From Parcubacteria group bacterium (GTDB lineage Bacteria > Patescibacteriota > Minisyncoccia > Moranbacterales > UBA9337), in NCBI GenBank assembly GCA_041662245.1, contig JBAZSW010000007.1, positions 163 through 64,162 on the forward strand: DNA of 64,000 nt, given 5' to 3'. The position numbers and the translations under genes were made by a program. How positions within the stretch are numbered: position 1 is the first letter of the stretch; each line of letters begins with the position of its first letter. A model generated the notes under the pieces. That model saw only the letters and a list, made by a program, of their open reading frames with translations, searched no databases and was not told the origin of the DNA. This document shows, piece after piece, positions 2,356-63,994 of this stretch.

Positions 2356-3300
2356 ATGAAAAAAATTTTAATATTGGGCGCCAAGGGAATGTTGGGGCAA
2401 GAATTGGTAAATATTTTTAGTAAAGGCGATTACGAAATTATTGCTTGGGATAAAGAAGAGCTAGATGTCCTCAAAGAGAAAGAAGCTGTTAAAAAAATAT
2501 CGGCGACTAAGGCAAAGATTATTTTAAATGCCGTAGCTTACAATGCTGTTGATAAATGCGAAGAAGAAGAGGAATTTGAATTAGCTAAAAAAATAAACGG
2601 AAAGGTCCCTGGATATTTGGCTAAAATAGCTAGAGATATGGGAGCAATTTTTGTGCATTATTCTAGCGACTATGTTTTTGGAGCTCAGATGCCCGAAATT
2701 CCTGAACCAGTAGGTTGTACGGGAAGTTGCGGAAGTTGTGGATTACATGCTGGTTTTGAGCCGGAGATTGGCTATGGTGAGGATGATAAACCTGCTCCTG
2801 TTAACAAATATGGACAGACTAAATTATTGGGAGAAAAGGAGGTAATAAAAAACGGAGAAAAATTCTATATCATTAGACTGTCTAAGTTATTCGGTAAGCC
2901 ATCTTCTGCCCTAGGAGCCAAAAAAAGTTTTTTTGATACAATGATAAGTTTAGTAAAAAATCCTCCAGAAGGCGGAATAAGAGTTATTGATGGAGAAACT
3001 AGCTGTTTTACTTATGCGCCTGATTTGGCGCAAAAAACTAAAGAGATAATTGAATCCAAAAAAGAATTTGGAATTTATCATATTACCAACAGTGATGGGG
3101 TGACTTGGTATGATGCGGCGGAAGAATTGTTTGCGCAAGCAGGATTAGAACATATAAAGATAGAACCGGTGGACAGTGACGAGTTCCTTCGACCGGCTCA
3201 GCGTCCGTATTTTTCTGTGTTGCTTAATAAAAAATTAAATCCACTAAGAAGTTACAAAGAAGCTTTATCGGAATATCTAAAAGATAACTTTAAAAAATAA
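2356..3300 (+). CDS. rfbD: dTDP-4-dehydrorhamnose reductase (RmlD) carrying a ~25 aa Cys/Gly-rich insertion
   Basis: ILGAKGMLG N-terminus, YSSDYVFG and YGQTKLLGE motifs. Immediately follows rfbB. The inserted segment is PEIPEPVGCTGSCGSCGLHAGFEPEIG. Confidence 0.8.
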   Translation: MKKILILGAKGMLGQELVNIFSKGDYEIIAWDKEELDVLKEKEAVKKISATKAKIILNAVAYNAVDKCEEEEEFELAKKINGKVPGYLAKIARDMGAIFVHYSSDYVFGAQMPEIPEPVGCTGSCGSCGLHAGFEPEIGYGEDDKPAPVNKYGQTKLLGEKEVIKNGEKFYIIRLSKLFGKPSSALGAKKSFFDTMISLVKNPPEGGIRVIDGETSCFTYAPDLAQKTKEIIESKKEFGIYHITNSDGVTWYDAAEELFAQAGLEHIKIEPVDSDEFLRPAQRPYFSVLLNKKLNPLRSYKEALSEYLKDNFKK

Positions 3301-3317
3301 AATTAAAAAACAAAAAA

Positions 3318-3524
3318 ATGATAAGAATAAAAATGATAGTGAAAACGGAAATAGGAGTTTCTATTATTTTAGTATTTTCTTTATTAGTAGCAATTTTTAC
3401 CGTAGTAGGTTTTGGTAAAACAATTAAAGATTTGGATAGAATAAATGAGTCTGTCCAAAAAAATCAAGCGGCACTTAATGAATTGCCAAAAAATGAACAA
3501 GGAACGCCAGTGATAAGTCATTGA
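3318..3524 (+). CDS. Small hypothetical membrane protein
   Basis: 68 aa ORF with a single TM segment (GVSIILVFSLLVAIFTVVGF). The start could be the internal M. Confidence 0.35.
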   Translation: MIRIKMIVKTEIGVSIILVFSLLVAIFTVVGFGKTIKDLDRINESVQKNQAALNELPKNEQGTPVISH

Positions 3525-61263: not shown

Positions 61264-61539
61264 ATTCCCGATTATAATTTATATTTTAAACCTTGGCAAT
61301 ATATTGCTATTTATTGCTTCTTTAATATTTCTGTCACGTGGACATTCGGGCATGCTTTAACATGATGTTAGCATAGTCAAAATTTCGACTTATTTTCCTG
61401 ACTTAGTCTGATTACATTCTTTGCAAAGCATCTGACAACTTTGGAAATTTTTTTATCTTCAATAATAATTTTCAGTTGTCTGATTTTTTCAGATGTTTTA
61501 CTTATTTCATTTTGCTTCATTCTAAGTGACGAATATAAC

Positions 61540-62550
61540 TTATCGAAGTTTTGACAATTTTTTTAATAATCCAATAGTTAAATCTCCTGCAGGATATATC
61601 CCATCAATTCTTTGCAAATATTCTTTTGAATAATAAATTTCATCAGCAACAAACAAATGCACTTGATGATCTCTAATTGCTCTTGCTTTTTCCTCGGAAA
61701 GATCAAGTCCTAACGTAATTTCTATCATTACATCTAATTTACTCATTTGAGCTGTTTTTATAAATTGTTTATATCTTTCTCGCAATGTTCTTTTTGCCCC
61801 TATTCCATAACTCTTGCCACTTAATTTAAAGAAAAAATCAAATTCTGTGGAACTGTCGTTTTTGTCATGCATTTTTCTTATGCTTTCTGCTCTAATACCC
61901 AAACCTATTAAAATGTTAAAAATTCTATCTTCATAACTTGATCCCGCGTCAGATATAATTGATTGATTTATACTTTCCGAAAACATAAGCATAAACATCT
62001 GATTCGGCTCCAAACCATTCTCCCTCAAATAAGAATATTGTTTGAAAAGAGTGTTTATATATTGTTCAGTTGATTCCGATATAAAGCTGGAGTCTCTTTC
62101 TTCAAGCTTCGAAAAAAACAGCAATGATAGAAGTGCACCATTGACCCTAGTGTAATAAGGTCTGCTCTTCGAAATAGTATCATATTCTATAGAAAGTTGA
62201 TTAATATTTTTTAATTTCGAAAGATTCGAAATTTCAGTAAGCTTGGCTTCAGCAAGAAGCAAGGGCTTTATCTGAATTAGTTTCAGAGCAAAAATAAAAA
62301 CCTCTAATTCAATATTATTCTTTATTTGATACAACAACGCCAGTAAAGGTGCTTTCTTTTTATCTGAGAAACTATCAACCACATTAATTAATATAGACAA
62401 TATCCTCTTATGACTTAATTTTTGATTTGTAAAATAAAACTCCAGAAATAAAATACTATCATTTTCTGAAAGCCTCATCTTTCCAAGCTCTTTAAAAATA
62501 TAGTATGCTCTTGAACTGATATTCTTTTTTGAAAAAATTTTTATTTCCAT
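61540..62550 (-). CDS. Hypothetical protein (336 aa), possible nuclease or specificity partner of the adjacent HNH protein
   Basis: Clean ORF 3 nt downstream of the HNH gene, in the same operon. A weak D...ExK-like stretch (EFDFFFKLSGKSYGIGAKR). Not assignable. Confidence 0.45.
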   Translation of the reverse strand: MEIKIFSKKNISSRAYYIFKELGKMRLSENDSILFLEFYFTNQKLSHKRILSILINVVDSFSDKKKAPLLALLYQIKNNIELEVFIFALKLIQIKPLLLAEAKLTEISNLSKLKNINQLSIEYDTISKSRPYYTRVNGALLSLLFFSKLEERDSSFISESTEQYINTLFKQYSYLRENGLEPNQMFMLMFSESINQSIISDAGSSYEDRIFNILIGLGIRAESIRKMHDKNDSSTEFDFFFKLSGKSYGIGAKRTLRERYKQFIKTAQMSKLDVMIEITLGLDLSEEKARAIRDHQVHLFVADEIYYSKEYLQRIDGIYPAGDLTIGLLKKLSKLR

Positions 62551-62553
62551 TGA

Positions 62554-63321
62554 TCAACCTTTAAATATATGTTGATTATGATATTCAATAAATTCCTCTG
62601 CTGGTAAATATTTTTCTGGTAATATTATGCTTCTATTTTCATAGTCAAGAAAAGTTTTAATTAAAAATGGCGTTTTCTCTTGTCTTTTTATTTCTTCAGA
62701 TATAACTATTTTAAAATCTTTGTTAATTGTTATATATCCCCTATCAAAAGCTTTGTCATGAATTGAATTTAATAAAAATCCATTTTTAGGATTTAATCTA
62801 TTTTCTTCATTTTTTGACCAAGGAATGATATGACTAGCAACCAGCAATGGCATCACAGATAATCCCGTAATACAACATTTATTATCAAAGTTTGACAATA
62901 TTAGCTTTCTAAAAAATGACTGTTTATCTCTTCCCTTTGGAGTTATCCCTTCTTTAATGTCAATATTGCAAGCATCATTCAAAGTGTCCTCATCTATAAA
63001 TATTTTAATTAATTCTGGATTTTTTAAACTTTCGATAATCTCGATACTTTTCTTTTCTAAAACATTCGTGTTGCTATATAAATTCCACACAATTTCATCA
63101 GATTTACTCCCGTTTGATAAGCCTTTAATTTGTCTTTTTTGTAAATTAGTGTCTAATCTAGCAAAATTTGATAATTTCATTGCTACTGACGATGGTGTCC
63201 TTTTTATAACTTTAGATAATTTTATTATATCTTTATTTCCCTTGTGCATTTTACCAAAAGGAAGTTGATAATATAATCTCAGAGCTAAAATCAATTCAAA
63301 TTCTTTCCAATTGTTTTTCAT
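62554..63321 (-). CDS. HNH endonuclease (HNH_2/restriction-enzyme-like)
   Basis: CCITGLSVMPLLVASHIIPWSKNEENRLNPKNGFLLNSIHDKAFDRGYITI matches C..TG...L.AaHI.P......N.L.L...H..FD.G. Confidence 0.75.
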   Translation of the reverse strand: MKNNWKEFELILALRLYYQLPFGKMHKGNKDIIKLSKVIKRTPSSVAMKLSNFARLDTNLQKRQIKGLSNGSKSDEIVWNLYSNTNVLEKKSIEIIESLKNPELIKIFIDEDTLNDACNIDIKEGITPKGRDKQSFFRKLILSNFDNKCCITGLSVMPLLVASHIIPWSKNEENRLNPKNGFLLNSIHDKAFDRGYITINKDFKIVISEEIKRQEKTPFLIKTFLDYENRSIILPEKYLPAEEFIEYHNQHIFKG

Positions 63322-63351
63322 AATTCTTTTAGTATAACCAAATTAATAAGG

Positions 63352-63651
63352 TTAACAAGAAAATCCTGCTAATAAAATATTAAAACGAGGAATTTCTGCT
63401 GGATCAATCTTTGTAATATCGCCATAGGGCAATTCTCCAAAATTTGCTTGGTATGTTTTTTTTGCTGGTTCATCCCATTCTGATGTAAAAACACATTCAC
63501 CACCAATACTCTCAAATCCAGTTCTGATTCCGCCTATACCAGCAAATAAATCTATAAATTTAAAATCAGCCATTTTTTCTTCTTGAGGAACATCAAATAG
63601 TGATTGTATTATAATTTTTTTTCTTACTTTTGTATTTACTTGATCAGGCAT
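63352..63651 (-). pseudogene. DNA (cytosine-5)-methyltransferase, 5' fragment only (motifs I-IV), truncated right after the catalytic Cys
   Basis: FKFIDLFAGIGGIRTGFE (motif I FxGxGG), CVFTSEWDEPAKKTYQANFG, DITKI, and ILLAGFSC* where the PC motif GFPCQ is expected. Stop codon TAA. Only 30 nt remain before the HNH gene. No downstream MTase motifs were found in any frame. Confidence 0.7.
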
Positions 63652-63712
63652 TATTTTTTGTTTAAGTTATATTTTTTTATTTTTCTTATTTTATCACATA
63701 AAATGGATACTC

Positions 63713-63994
63713 TTATTCTACAACTTCTCTCAGGCTTTTACCAGTTAATCTTGAACTATTTATTAATTTCAGCTTTTGAACCCTTTTTAATTTTTTAATG
63801 CGAGATTCCGCCATTGTTGCTTCGGATCTATTTTTAAATTTTTTAGAAAAAACTACCTTTACGGGTCGGCGCGAGGCGGTATATTTTGCACCCAGCTTGC
63901 TATTGTTGTGTTGGAGAAGTCTTCTCTTTAAATCAGTGGTAATCCCTGTATATAAAGTTTTGTCGGAACATTTAAGAATATATAAATAATACAT
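63713..63994 (-). CDS. GIY-YIG nuclease family protein (small UPF0213/YhbQ-like)
   Basis: MYYLYILKCSDKTLYTGITTDLKRRLLQHN is the GIY-YIG core. Confidence 0.8.
   Translation of the reverse strand: MYYLYILKCSDKTLYTGITTDLKRRLLQHNNSKLGAKYTASRRPVKVVFSKKFKNRSEATMAESRIKKLKRVQKLKLINSSRLTGKSLREVVE

What the first reader, a model, noticed from the sequence alone, without database searches (positions are those of the whole stretch)
61540..63651. Decayed restriction-modification-like locus: C5-MTase truncated immediately after its catalytic Cys, followed by an HNH nuclease and a co-transcribed 336 aa unknown
The Dcm-like ORF has a perfect motif I (FIDLFAGIGG) and ends ...ILLAGFSC-stop exactly where the catalytic PC motif should sit. 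Only 30 nt separate it from an HNH_2-type endonuclease gene, which is followed after 3 nt by a 336 aa protein of unknown function. There are two readings. Either an ancestral MTase was interrupted and lost its 3' two-thirds, leaving an orphan nuclease that must be inactive, methyl-dependent (type IV, McrA-like) or protected elsewhere. Or the HNH plus unknown pair is a distinct defence module that inserted into an MTase gene. The GIY-YIG gene next door adds to the nuclease density.
Basis: partly seen in the sequence, partly recalled or inferred. Interest (0 to 1): 0.55.

Follow-up and report, generated by a model that had tools for sequence, protein, structure and literature searches.

The report
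MTase gene beheaded by mobile HNH nuclease
This is an ordinary two-gene restriction-modification cassette in which the protective methylase gene was cut off at its catalytic motif and replaced by a mobile HNH nuclease gene while the restriction enzyme stayed intact, and the same replacement recurs in unrelated bacteria including the gonococcus.

Summary
All genes lie on the minus strand. A 99-aa C5-MTase stub ends GFSC-TAA. A 255-aa HNH_2 gene follows after 30 nt, and a 336-aa gene after 3 more.

The 336-aa "unknown" is the stub's own restriction enzyme, with an EcoRII-C/Ecl18kI fold. In 69 of 73 evaluable homologous loci an intact Dcm-like MTase sits directly upstream of it, with no HNH. Only the HNH is foreign.

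The window is a mosaic. The stub and most of R resemble intact cassettes (80-84% nt). The HNH, a mutated motif-IV remnant and R codons 1-20 resemble other stub-HNH-R loci.

The same architecture occurs in six other contexts:
- four further Patescibacteria-type loci, one with a different R family;
- an alphaproteobacterium;
- the N. gonorrhoeae NgoAXIII remnant.

HNH and R keep all family-invariant residues. The truncation is not a sequencing error, because about 700 nt of the MTase gene are physically absent.

The HNH domain is closest to the modification-dependent enzymes VcaM4I and TagI. My best reading is a recombination-spread swap of MTase for a methyl-dependent nuclease, like dam/drg. 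How an intact R is tolerated without its MTase is unexplained.

The parts
63652..63685 (-). Left edge of the horizontally acquired M-R cassette: the 5' leader and putative promoter region of the MTase gene.
   Evidence: Nucleotide homology to the intact cassettes L028 and L029 begins 34 nt upstream of the stub ATG. The flanks beyond that point are unrelated. GC content across the cassette is 26-31%, against 33-38% in the neighbouring genes.
63352..63651 (-). C5-cytosine MTase stub of 99 aa. It holds motifs I-III and a mutated motif IV (GFSC instead of GFPC), followed by TAA.
   Evidence: Pfam DNA_methylase at E=1.6e-24, profile positions 1-71 of 324, and NCBIfam Dcm subfamily PRK10458 at E=2.9e-23. 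The stub is 81% aa identical to the N-terminus of the intact 334-aa MTase of L002. It ends at position 90 of a 327-position profile built from 51 intact MTases.
63345..63366 (-). Left junction: GGATTTTCTTGT TAA CCTT. This is a motif-IV remnant with Pro changed to Ser and CAG changed to TAA. MTase homology ends here.
   Evidence: Alignment with L002, L007, L028 and L029, which read GGATTTCCTTGYCAGCCTTT, shows where homology stops. L021 shares the derived T in the Pro codon and the TAA.
63322..63351 (-). A 30-nt spacer unique to this locus. It contains a weak promoter-like match (TTGTTA-16-TATACT, 63358-63331).
   Evidence: The promoter match is 9 of 12 positions only and is not evidence of function.
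62554..63321 (-). Inserted HNH_2 nuclease gene of 255 aa. It has an N-terminal all-helical domain (about residues 7-115) and a C-terminal beta-beta-alpha-Me HNH domain.
   Evidence: Pfam HNH_2 at 2.2e-12 and PADLOC PDLC04132 at 5.8e-84, full length. The AlphaFold model has pLDDT 90. The best PDB matches are VcaM4I and TagI. All invariant residues are kept. It is 79% identical to the L004 HNH, 75% to L021, and 61% to L023 and L026.
62491..62550 (-). R gene codons 1-20. This is a donor-derived tract marking the right recombination junction.
   Evidence: Codons 1-20 are 68% nt identical to the L004 R gene but only 45-53% identical to the intact-cassette R genes. From codon 41 onward the pattern reverses, at 76-82% against 49-68%. 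The window also lacks the 4-aa insertion found in the intact-cassette type.
61540..62550 (-). Cognate type II restriction endonuclease (R) of 336 aa. It has a helical N-terminal domain and an EcoRII-C/Ecl18kI-like PD-(D/E)XK catalytic domain.
   Evidence: Pfam EcoRII-C at 1e-4, residues 188-309, and many family members carry precomputed PF09019. Foldseek's top hits are Ecl18kI and EcoRII-C at probability 1.00, E about 2e-3, TM-scores 0.31-0.45. All 56 invariant columns are kept. dN/dS against intact-cassette R genes is 0.06-0.07. An intact MTase lies directly upstream in 69 of 73 evaluable loci.

Best explanation
**Shown.** The locus began as a mobile two-gene type II restriction-modification cassette. 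A Dcm-like C5-MTase was followed by an EcoRII-C/Ecl18kI-fold endonuclease.

A segment was then imported by recombination from another locus that already had this arrangement. The segment carried four things:
- a mutated motif-IV remnant, including the TAA stop;
- a short spacer;
- a complete HNH_2 nuclease gene;
- the first ~20 codons of an R gene.

It replaced everything in the MTase gene after the catalytic Cys codon. The MTase is irreversibly dead. HNH and R are intact, tightly packed in one orientation, and conserved. HNH genes of this family have landed in the same way in several divergent M-R cassettes.

**Inferred.** The HNH is a modification-dependent (type IV-like) nuclease that attacks the 5mC mark made by the kind of MTase it displaces. 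Nuclease and MTase cannot coexist, so the only stable way to carry the nuclease at this locus is as an allele that removes the MTase. This parallels three known cases:
- drg replacing dam in Neisseria;
- DpnI versus DpnII in pneumococci;
- the PcaRCI/PcaRCII conflict.

The stub survives as promoter, leader ORF and homology arm. R is still expressed with the HNH. The host must be shielded from R by something outside the window, for example an unlinked MTase giving a mark the HNH ignores, such as m4C.

The confidence of 0.5 is for the whole statement. The shown structural and evolutionary part alone I would put near 0.9, and the methyl-dependence of the HNH near 0.45.
For: **Structure and cognate pairing**
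- Intact M followed by R is present in L002/3 and L007-9 and in 69 of 73 evaluable genome loci.
- The MTase breakpoint and the absence of the 3' part are shown.

**Recurrence of stub-HNH-R**
- L004-6, L021-22, L023-25 (a different R family, with an intact second MTase downstream) and L026-27.
- L072, an alphaproteobacterium, with an HNH only 34% identical.
- N. gonorrhoeae, arranged vsr-stub-HNH.

**Mobility and mosaicism**
- The HNH proteins of the window, L004 and L021 are 75-79% identical, while their R proteins are only 45-50% identical.
- Each of these R proteins is closer to an R from an intact cassette: 85%, 66%, 80% and 54%.
- The crossover lies near R codon 20.
- The window and L021 share derived junction mutations.

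**Integrity**
- Invariant residues are kept in both proteins.
- R dN/dS is 0.06-0.07.

**Indications that the HNH is methyl-dependent**
- The only PDB relatives are the modification-dependent enzymes VcaM4I and TagI.
- More distant family members are solitary, with no MTase nearby.
- PcaRCII is described with the same architecture, a helical N-terminal domain plus a VcaM4I/TagI-like HNH. It restricts Dcm-type 5mC at CCWGG/CCNGG and conflicts with a Dcm homologue (PMC8989522).
- The dam/drg replacement and the NgoAXIII MTase remnant are described in PMC6789123.
Against: - No experiment or sequence comparison ties this HNH to PcaRCII. Its sequence could not be retrieved.
- The N-terminal domain matches no known modified-base reader.
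- The NCBIfam PT-DNA_restrict score of 70.7 is far below its cutoff of 180.
- An intact R without a linked MTase should be lethal. The window still holds 22 CCWGG and 34 CCNGG sites, with observed/expected about 0.5.
- The 64-kb window encodes no other DNA MTase.
- If protection comes from an unlinked 5mC MTase of the same specificity, a 5mC-dependent HNH would itself be lethal.
- In L023 and in the gonococcus the HNH coexists with active or intact C5-MTases of other specificities. It would therefore have to be sequence-selective.
Confidence: 0.5

Rival explanations
1. The HNH is a selfish, homing-like endonuclease. It recognises the conserved motif III/IV coding DNA of intact C5-MTase genes, cuts it, and is copied in from an HNH-bearing allele during recombinational repair. 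The mutated junction then makes the invaded allele immune to cutting. R retention would be incidental.
For: - There is presence/absence polymorphism among otherwise homologous cassettes, and the HNH and R phylogenies disagree.
- Co-conversion-like donor tracts lie on both sides of the HNH.
- All seven stub ends fall between profile positions 64 and 90 of 327. Three lie at motif IV (the window, L021, the gonococcus) and three at motif III.
- In a rough NJ tree the stub-linked HNHs are not monophyletic, which suggests repeated landings.
- At least three MTase types have been hit.
Against: - The family at large is solitary and its HNH domain resembles restriction enzymes, not known HNH homing enzymes.
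- There is no intron or intein, so every homing event would kill the MTase and expose the cell to R.
- The clustered breakpoints can equally be explained by one ancestral junction spread by recombination and later trimmed by deletions.
- The NJ tree has long branches and is weak evidence.
Confidence: 0.2
2. HNH and R have become a cooperating or mutually regulating two-nuclease module that no longer needs an MTase. For example, the HNH protein could restrain or license R, as in a toxin-antitoxin or abortive-infection pair.
For: - HNH and R are always co-oriented and abut or overlap: ATGA overlaps in L004, L021 and L026, and a 3-nt gap in the window.
- R stays intact in all five loci of this R family despite the dead MTase.
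- An analogous architecture exists with a different insert. L112-114 carry stub, a NOV_C/DUF3883 protein, an intact R.HaeII and Vsr, in at least 24 contigs.
Against: - The same HNH clade pairs with a different R family (L023).
- A relative has no R at all (the gonococcus).
- Most family members are solitary.
- No co-variation or interaction evidence exists.
Confidence: 0.12
3. This is plain decay. The cassette is a dying R-M system in which the MTase was hit first. HNH and R are unexpressed or inactive relics with no joint function.
For: - Full-length type II R genes next to corrupted MTase genes are documented: 11 cases in 1,040 genomes (PMC3488263).
- Lone stubs and an internally deleted MTase occur in related loci (L109-111, L067).
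- Stub dN/dS is slightly raised, at 0.20 against 0.07-0.12.
Against: - The same three-part architecture recurs in seven contexts, always with intact HNH and R ORFs.
- All invariant residues are retained.
- R dN/dS is low.
- The HNH clade has diverged to 57-79% identity without acquiring a single disrupted copy.
Confidence: 0.1
4. This is a sequencing or assembly artefact. The MTase is really full length and the locus is an ordinary type II R-M system.
For: None beyond the general frequency of frameshift errors in MAGs (PMC3488263).
Against: - About 700 nt of MTase coding sequence are missing and an unrelated 768-nt gene sits in their place.
- A second assembly gives the identical sequence.
- The same architecture appears in independent samples and organisms.
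Confidence: 0.01

Closest known systems
EcoRII / Ecl18kI / SsoII-type type II R-M systems (Dcm-like C5-MTase plus a PD-(D/E)XK endonuclease of the EcoRII-C family)
   Same: - The stub matches the Dcm subfamily.
- R matches Pfam EcoRII-C, and its model's best PDB matches are Ecl18kI and EcoRII-C.
- Relatives show the canonical adjacent M-R pair.
- R carries K253-x3-R257-E258-R259. From memory, this resembles the K-x3-RER CC:GG-reading motif of Ecl18kI. I did not test this here.
   Different: - The MTase is truncated after motif IV, so there is no modification function.
- R has an unrelated helical N-terminal domain of about 185 aa.
- The recognition sequence is unknown.
PcaRCII of Pectobacterium carotovorum, a methylation-dependent HNH endonuclease in conflict with the Dcm-like M.PcaRCI (PMC8989522)
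   Same: - It has the same described architecture: an N-terminal helical DNA-binding domain plus an HNH domain resembling VcaM4I and TagI.
- It is antagonistic to a Dcm-type MTase.
   Different: - In Pectobacterium the conflict is resolved by promoter methylation that silences the HNH gene at a separate locus. Here the MTase gene itself is destroyed by the HNH gene.
- Sequence homology to PcaRCII could not be tested.
dam / drg (dam-replacing gene) in Neisseria, and the DpnII / DpnI cassettes of S. pneumoniae
   Same: An MTase-containing allele and a methyl-dependent nuclease allele alternate at one chromosomal locus and are exchanged by recombination in the flanking homology. drg is covered in PMC6789123. 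DpnI/DpnII is from my own knowledge.
   Different: - Those are whole-gene replacements for 6mA at GATC.
- Here only the 3' 70% of a C5-MTase gene is replaced.
- A stub remains, and the cognate restriction enzyme for unmethylated DNA is kept.
NgoAXIII remnant of N. gonorrhoeae (Vsr plus a truncated 112/133-aa MTase between pheS and pheT)
   Same: It has a C5-MTase stub broken just after the PCQ codons, followed by a 249-aa homologue of the window's HNH at 42% identity. The stub itself is already described as an inactive remnant (PMC6789123).
   Different: - No R gene follows.
- A 280-nt segment separates the stub from the HNH.
- The cited paper does not mention the HNH.
Solitary type II restriction genes next to corrupted MTase genes (PMC3488263)
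   Same: A full-length type II R lies next to a truncated MTase, and orthologous intact systems exist elsewhere.
   Different: Here the corruption is not a frameshift or a random deletion. It is a recurrent replacement by one particular nuclease family.

Membership tests
Functional type II R-M system | A complete C5-MTase with the catalytic PC motif, ENV, QxRxR, TRD and motifs IX-X | tested here: not met
   Only profile positions 1-71 of 324 (Pfam) or 6-90 of 327 (own HMM) are present. PC has become SC followed by a stop. No 3' part is found in the window.
Functional type II R-M system | A restriction endonuclease gene adjacent to the MTase gene, with the same pairing conserved in relatives | tested here: met
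   69 of 73 evaluable loci have an intact MTase directly upstream of R. L002 and L007 show the same arrangement.
EcoRII-C / Ecl18kI PD-(D/E)XK endonucleases | The catalytic-domain fold and family profile match | tested here: met
   The Pfam EcoRII-C match is E=1e-4 at 22.9 bits, just under the 25-bit gathering score, although relatives carry precomputed PF09019. Foldseek gives Ecl18kI and EcoRII-C at probability 1.00, with TM-scores of only 0.31-0.45. A profile search of PDB sequences found no hit.
EcoRII-C / Ecl18kI PD-(D/E)XK endonucleases | Cleavage of unmethylated CCNGG/CCWGG-type sites | not testable with these tools
   This can only be inferred from the fold and the Dcm-like partner. The sites are present in the window at about half the expected count.
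HNH_2 nucleases | A beta-beta-alpha-Me motif with catalytic His, Asn and His | tested here: met
   H164, N180/N185 and H188 are invariant in a 57-sequence alignment. Pfam HNH_2 is above its cutoff. The alignment to VcaM4I is shown.
Modification-dependent (type IV) HNH restriction enzymes (VcaM4I, TagI, PcaRCII, ScoMcrA type) | An N-terminal reader domain for modified DNA (EVE, SRA, SBD or wH) | tested here: inconclusive
Modification-dependent (type IV) HNH restriction enzymes | No active cognate MTase linked to the gene | tested here: met
   The MTase is truncated here and in all six related contexts. More distant family members are solitary.
Modification-dependent (type IV) HNH restriction enzymes | Cleavage requires modified DNA | not testable with these tools
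   This needs in vivo toxicity assays and in vitro cleavage assays.
NCBIfam NF045808 phosphorothioate-dependent restriction endonuclease | A score at or above the curated cutoff of 180 bits | tested here: not met
   The score is 70.7 bits and covers only residues 74-254.
Homing endonuclease genes | Presence/absence polymorphism at a fixed site in a conserved host gene, with co-converted flanks | tested here: inconclusive
   The polymorphism and the donor tracts are present. Breakpoints cluster at motifs III and IV but are not identical. Inheritance from one ancestral junction explains this equally well.
Homing endonuclease genes | Residence in an intron or intein, or between genes, so that the host gene stays functional | tested here: not met
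   The insertion deletes about 235 codons of the host gene.

The most novel reading that the evidence does not exclude
Nuclease genes such as this HNH_2, and the NOV_C/DUF3883 gene in L112-114, form a class of elements that specifically take over R-M cassettes. They recombine into the conserved 5' part of the C5-MTase gene, delete the methylase and keep the restriction enzyme. There are two possible forms:
- a selfish 'MTase-homing' nuclease;
- a double-restriction locus that cuts a site whether or not it carries 5mC, with the host protected by an unlinked, orthogonal mark.
Probability: 0.2. Interest if true: 0.8.

Novelty: new variant of a known kind. Interest (0 to 1): 0.6.

Why it matters
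R-M systems are regarded as addictive. Losing the MTase while the restriction enzyme remains should kill the cell.

Here one nuclease family repeatedly removes the MTase yet leaves an intact, conserved restriction gene. This occurs in lineages from Patescibacteria to an alphaproteobacterium, and the same stub-HNH arrangement, without an R gene, occurs in the gonococcus. Three outcomes are possible:
- If the HNH is methyl-dependent, this is a compact genetic route for flipping a locus from 'make the mark' to 'attack the mark'. It extends the dam/drg and DpnI/DpnII idea to 5mC and to partial gene replacement.
- If the HNH is a homing-type enzyme, it would be a parasite of R-M systems.
- In either case it gives a concrete system for asking how cells tolerate an orphan type II restriction enzyme. 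It also explains a long-annotated gonococcal 'MTase remnant'.

Tried and rejected
**Searches that led nowhere**
- The metagenome-contig scan with the HNH protein returned only relatives at about 40% identity, with no MTase nearby. The close relatives had to be reached through the look-up of encoding contigs instead.
- The viral-contig scan found four solitary HNH homologues and no stubs.
- A profile search of PDB sequences with the R family gave only spurious internalin/LRR hits on the helical N-terminal domain. The NCBIfam internalin hits are the same artefact.
- The PcaRCII sequence is present only as an image in the paper's supplement, so direct homology could not be tested.

**Ideas considered and dropped**
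- A search for a second DNA MTase in the window by DPPY/FxGxG motifs gave only ClpB and SHMT as false positives.
- Site avoidance would explain R tolerance only if the sites were gone. CCWGG and CCNGG are halved but not eliminated, and R's specificity is unknown anyway.
- A stub-HNH fusion by readthrough is unlikely. The two are in the same frame in the window, but two TAA codons separate them, and the frames differ in L021.
- An alternative genetic code does not rescue the ORF, because the stop is TAA.
- The GIY-YIG gene is not part of the system, because it lies outside the cassette homology.
- L028 and L029 are not orthologous positions. Their flanks differ, so 'an intact MTase at this same chromosomal position in a sister genome' could not be shown.
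Full report
**1. The observation**

All genes in 61.3-64.0 kb lie on the minus strand. In order they are:
- a 93-aa GIY-YIG gene (63994-63713);
- a 99-aa ORF (63651-63352) reading ...FKFIDLFAGIGG...ILLAGFSC-TAA;
- a 30-nt gap;
- a 255-aa ORF (63321-62554);
- a 3-nt gap;
- a 336-aa ORF (62550-61540);
- a 47-aa ORF;
- secD and secF.

Pfam assigns the 99-aa ORF to C5 DNA_methylase at E=1.6e-24, but only profile positions 1-71 of 324 are covered. The 255-aa ORF matches HNH_2 at 2.2e-12. The 336-aa ORF matches EcoRII-C weakly, at 1e-4 over residues 188-309.

PADLOC matches the HNH end to end at 5.8e-84. NCBIfam places the stub nearest the Dcm subfamily. It also gives the HNH a sub-threshold hit to phosphorothioate-dependent enzymes, 70.7 bits against a cutoff of 180. 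The description is therefore accurate.

The contig is from a Parcubacteria-group MAG.

**2. The 336-aa protein is the MTase's own restriction enzyme**

Its family has more than 900 detectable members. In the closest relatives on long contigs, an intact 334-340-aa C5-MTase sits directly upstream with a 4-nt gap or an 11-nt overlap, and no HNH is present (L002/3, L007-9).

I scanned one genome per species and obtained 80 loci. Of these, 73 had evaluable upstream sequence, and 69 of the 73 show one full-length MTase match immediately upstream of R. The four exceptions are:
- L044, where the MTase match is split;
- L067, where the MTase has an internal deletion;
- L095, where no MTase is found;
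- L072, discussed in section 4.

The hosts span Patescibacteria, Campylobacterota, Alphaproteobacteria, Neisseriaceae and DPANN archaea. The flanking genes differ from locus to locus, so this is a mobile two-gene M-R cassette.

An AlphaFold model of R has pLDDT 80. Its best PDB matches are Ecl18kI and the EcoRII catalytic domain, at probability 1.00 but with modest TM-scores of 0.31-0.45. The window's R keeps all 56 invariant columns of a 57-sequence alignment.

**3. What happened to the MTase**

At the DNA level the stub aligns with the intact MTases of L002, L007, L028 and L029 at 80-84% identity. The alignment starts 34 nt upstream of the ATG and runs to ...GGATTT**T**CTTGT **TAA** CCTT. 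The intact genes read GGATTTCCTTGYCAGCCTTT at this point and then continue.

So the Pro codon of the PC motif has become Ser, and the Gln codon has become TAA. Homology stops 4-7 nt later. The remaining ~235 codons are absent from the whole window, and the HNH gene occupies their place.

A second assembly gives the same sequence. This is a real, irreversible truncation and not a read error.

**4. The arrangement recurs**

Every close relative of the HNH (61% identity or more) sits between a C5-MTase stub and a restriction gene, in unrelated chromosomal contexts:

| Locus | Stub | HNH | R | Flanking genes |
|---|---|---|---|---|
| L004-6 | 64 aa | 255 aa | 338 aa | der and plsY |
| L021-22 | 79 aa | 253 aa | 335 aa | gdh and relA |
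| L026-27 | partial | 255 aa | 328 aa | next to pyrG |
| L023-25 | 51 aa | 257 aa | 251 aa, BsaWI-like (a different R family), then an intact second C5-MTase | not recorded |

Two more distant cases turned up:
- L072, an alphaproteobacterial MAG, has a stub, an HNH only 34% identical and a 321-aa R, all downstream of mutL.
- N. gonorrhoeae has, between pheS and pheT, vsr, a 133-aa MTase stub, 280 nt of intervening sequence and a 249-aa HNH homologue at 42% identity. No R follows.

The gonococcal stub is the published NgoAXIII 'MTase remnant'. N. lactamica has the 362-aa version, and meningococci carry the NmeDI system at this locus (PMC6789123; PMC7973814). The HNH next to it is not mentioned in that paper.

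More distant HNH homologues have no MTase sequence nearby. These come from Bacteroidota-like metagenome loci, four viral contigs and a Hymenobacter plasmid.

**5. The HNH moves between cassettes by recombination**

The HNH proteins of the window, L004 and L021 are 75-79% identical, but their R proteins are only 45-50% identical. Each stub-linked R is closer to an R from an intact cassette:
- the window's R is 85% identical to L028 and L029;
- L021's is 66-67% identical to L044, L045 and L049;
- L072's is 80% identical to L099;
- L004's is 54% identical to L036.

The window is visibly a mosaic. The stub follows L028 at 84% nt. The HNH follows L004 at 81% nt, in one blastn segment that runs 57 nt into R. 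The R gene shows the switch directly:

| R codons | nt identity to L004 | nt identity to intact-cassette R genes |
|---|---|---|
| 1-20 | 68% | 45-53% |
| 41 onward | 49-68% | 76-82% |

On the left side, the window and L021 share the derived T in the Pro codon and the TAA. The last ~15 nt of the stub therefore travelled with the HNH.

Against a profile of intact MTases, the stubs end at these positions out of 327:
- 90 in the window;
- 88 in L021;
- 87 in the gonococcus;
- 75 in L072;
- 72 in L004 and in L026/27;
- 64 in L023.

All of these fall just after motif III or motif IV. In L023 and L027 the stub resembles a different MTase type, the one found intact downstream in L023.

A rough NJ tree makes the window's clade monophyletic. 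It places the L072 and gonococcal HNHs on separate long branches.

**6. State of the genes**

- The HNH keeps H164, N180/N185, H188 and every other invariant column.
- The HNH model has pLDDT 90. It shows an all-helical N-terminal domain (residues 7-115) and a C-terminal HNH domain.
- R dN/dS against intact-cassette relatives is 0.06-0.07.
- Stub dN/dS is 0.20 against L028, compared with 0.07-0.12 among intact genes. This is a mild relaxation measured on only 99 codons.
- In several loci the stub ORF overlaps the HNH start, and the HNH stop overlaps the R start as ATGA.
- No terminator-like site lies within the window's cassette.
- I infer co-transcription from the old MTase promoter, with the stub serving as leader ORF and recombination arm.
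- The cassette has 26-31% GC, against 33-38% in its neighbours.

**7. Mechanism**

The HNH domain's only relatives of known structure are VcaM4I and TagI, both modification-dependent restriction enzymes.

A published enzyme with the same described architecture is PcaRCII. It restricts DNA carrying Dcm-type 5mC at CCWGG/CCNGG and is incompatible with a Dcm-like MTase (PMC8989522).

Replacement of an MTase by a nuclease specific for its mark, at the same locus, is known for dam and drg in Neisseria. It is also known for DpnII and DpnI in pneumococci (my own knowledge).

My best reading, at confidence about 0.5, is that the HNH is a 5mC-dependent nuclease. On this reading its gene can only be carried stably as an allele that removes the resident MTase, and that allele spreads among related M-R cassettes by recombination.

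I did not show modification dependence. The N-terminal domain matches no known reader domain.

**8. The unexplained part**

An intact, conserved type II restriction gene without its MTase should be lethal. Yet R is intact in all five loci of this family and in L023.

- The window has 22 CCWGG and 34 CCNGG sites, about half the expected number.
- It encodes no other DNA MTase.
- The rest of the genome was not available to me.
- An unlinked 5mC MTase of the same specificity would protect against R but would clash with a 5mC-dependent HNH. An orthogonal mark such as m4C would satisfy both.

Two alternatives remain open. The HNH could be a homing-like parasite of MTase genes, or HNH and R could regulate each other.

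A parallel architecture with a different insert suggests the phenomenon is wider than this HNH family. L112-114 carry a stub, a 249-aa NOV_C/DUF3883 protein, an intact R.HaeII and Vsr, in at least 24 contigs next to a serine recombinase. I chose that stub partly because it ends near motif IV, so its breakpoint is not independent evidence.

Full-length type II R genes beside corrupted MTase genes have been catalogued before (PMC3488263).

**9. Verdict**

Reading 2 is wrong about which genes belong together.
- The locus is a new variant of known kinds: an orphaned restriction gene, and an MTase/methyl-dependent-nuclease allelic swap.
- Three features are distinctive. The gene replacement is partial. 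It recurs across phyla through recombination. The restriction enzyme is retained.
- Interest is 0.6.

Noticed in passing
L112:4001-6082, also L113 and L114: The architecture is the same but the insert differs. An 86-aa C5-MTase stub ending GFPCQAFSIICV* is followed after 3 nt by a 249-aa NOV_C/DUF3883 nuclease-like protein, then an intact HaeII-family REase (354 aa) and, in L113, Vsr. The locus lies near a large serine recombinase and is seen in at least 24 contigs.
   Followed up: partly
L108:2950-4738 (N. gonorrhoeae NZ_CP119142.1, about 373.3-375.1 kb): The published NgoAXIII remnant (Vsr plus a truncated MTase between pheS and pheT) is followed by an intact 249-aa HNH_2 gene that the cited literature does not discuss. 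A 113-aa ORF with no Pfam match lies between the stub and the HNH. PLSDB lists this 2.17-Mb chromosome as a plasmid.
   Followed up: partly
L010:2705-3007, L011:1411-1710, L012:4796-5098, L013:4715-5026, L015 about 3215-3430: Solitary HNH homologues in Bacteroidota-like contigs are each followed by a conserved ORF of about 100 aa, beginning MPNIKFNYLYRDGGNYKKF..., with no Pfam match. It may be a partner protein.
   Followed up: no
L023:5806-7859: Downstream of the stub and HNH lie a BsaWI-like REase and an intact C5-MTase. The MTase reading frame runs on into an HpaII-REase-like N-terminus (PF09561, E=1.6e-11). This looks like a composite locus of CCGG-type systems. The stub's first 19 residues are nearly identical to those of the downstream MTase.
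   Followed up: partly
L109:4001-4246, L110:938-1183, L111:186-476: These are lone C5-MTase stubs of 81 and 96 aa sitting between housekeeping genes, with neither HNH nor R. They are probably the last remnants of lost cassettes.
   Followed up: no
L067:2966-3460; L095 upstream of 3501; L044:2348-3444: Other members of the R family also have a damaged or missing MTase: an internal deletion in L067, no MTase in L095, and a split match in L044. In each case R appears full length or nearly so.
   Followed up: no
L052:4563-5090, L054:4501-4809, L091:4595-5578, L100:5684-6520: Some cassettes carry a second C5-MTase, or a fragment of one, downstream of R, giving an M-R-M arrangement.
   Followed up: no
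window, whole 64 kb: Several short palindromes occur at about half the Markov expectation: CCWGG 0.47, CCNGG 0.49, GCWGC 0.47, GGCC 0.56 and GATC 0.57. This suggests past or present restriction pressure at several sites.
   Followed up: partly
window 61377-61520 (-): A 47-aa ORF lies directly downstream of R with no family match. It is reproduced in the second assembly (L001) but absent from the other loci. Intact cassettes carry different small genes at this position, for example a 107-aa HTH_24/DUF977 protein in L002.
   Followed up: partly
window 63713-63994 (-): The 93-aa stand-alone GIY-YIG protein lies outside the cassette homology and has no counterpart at the other stub-HNH-R loci. It is most likely an unrelated host gene.
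   Followed up: yes
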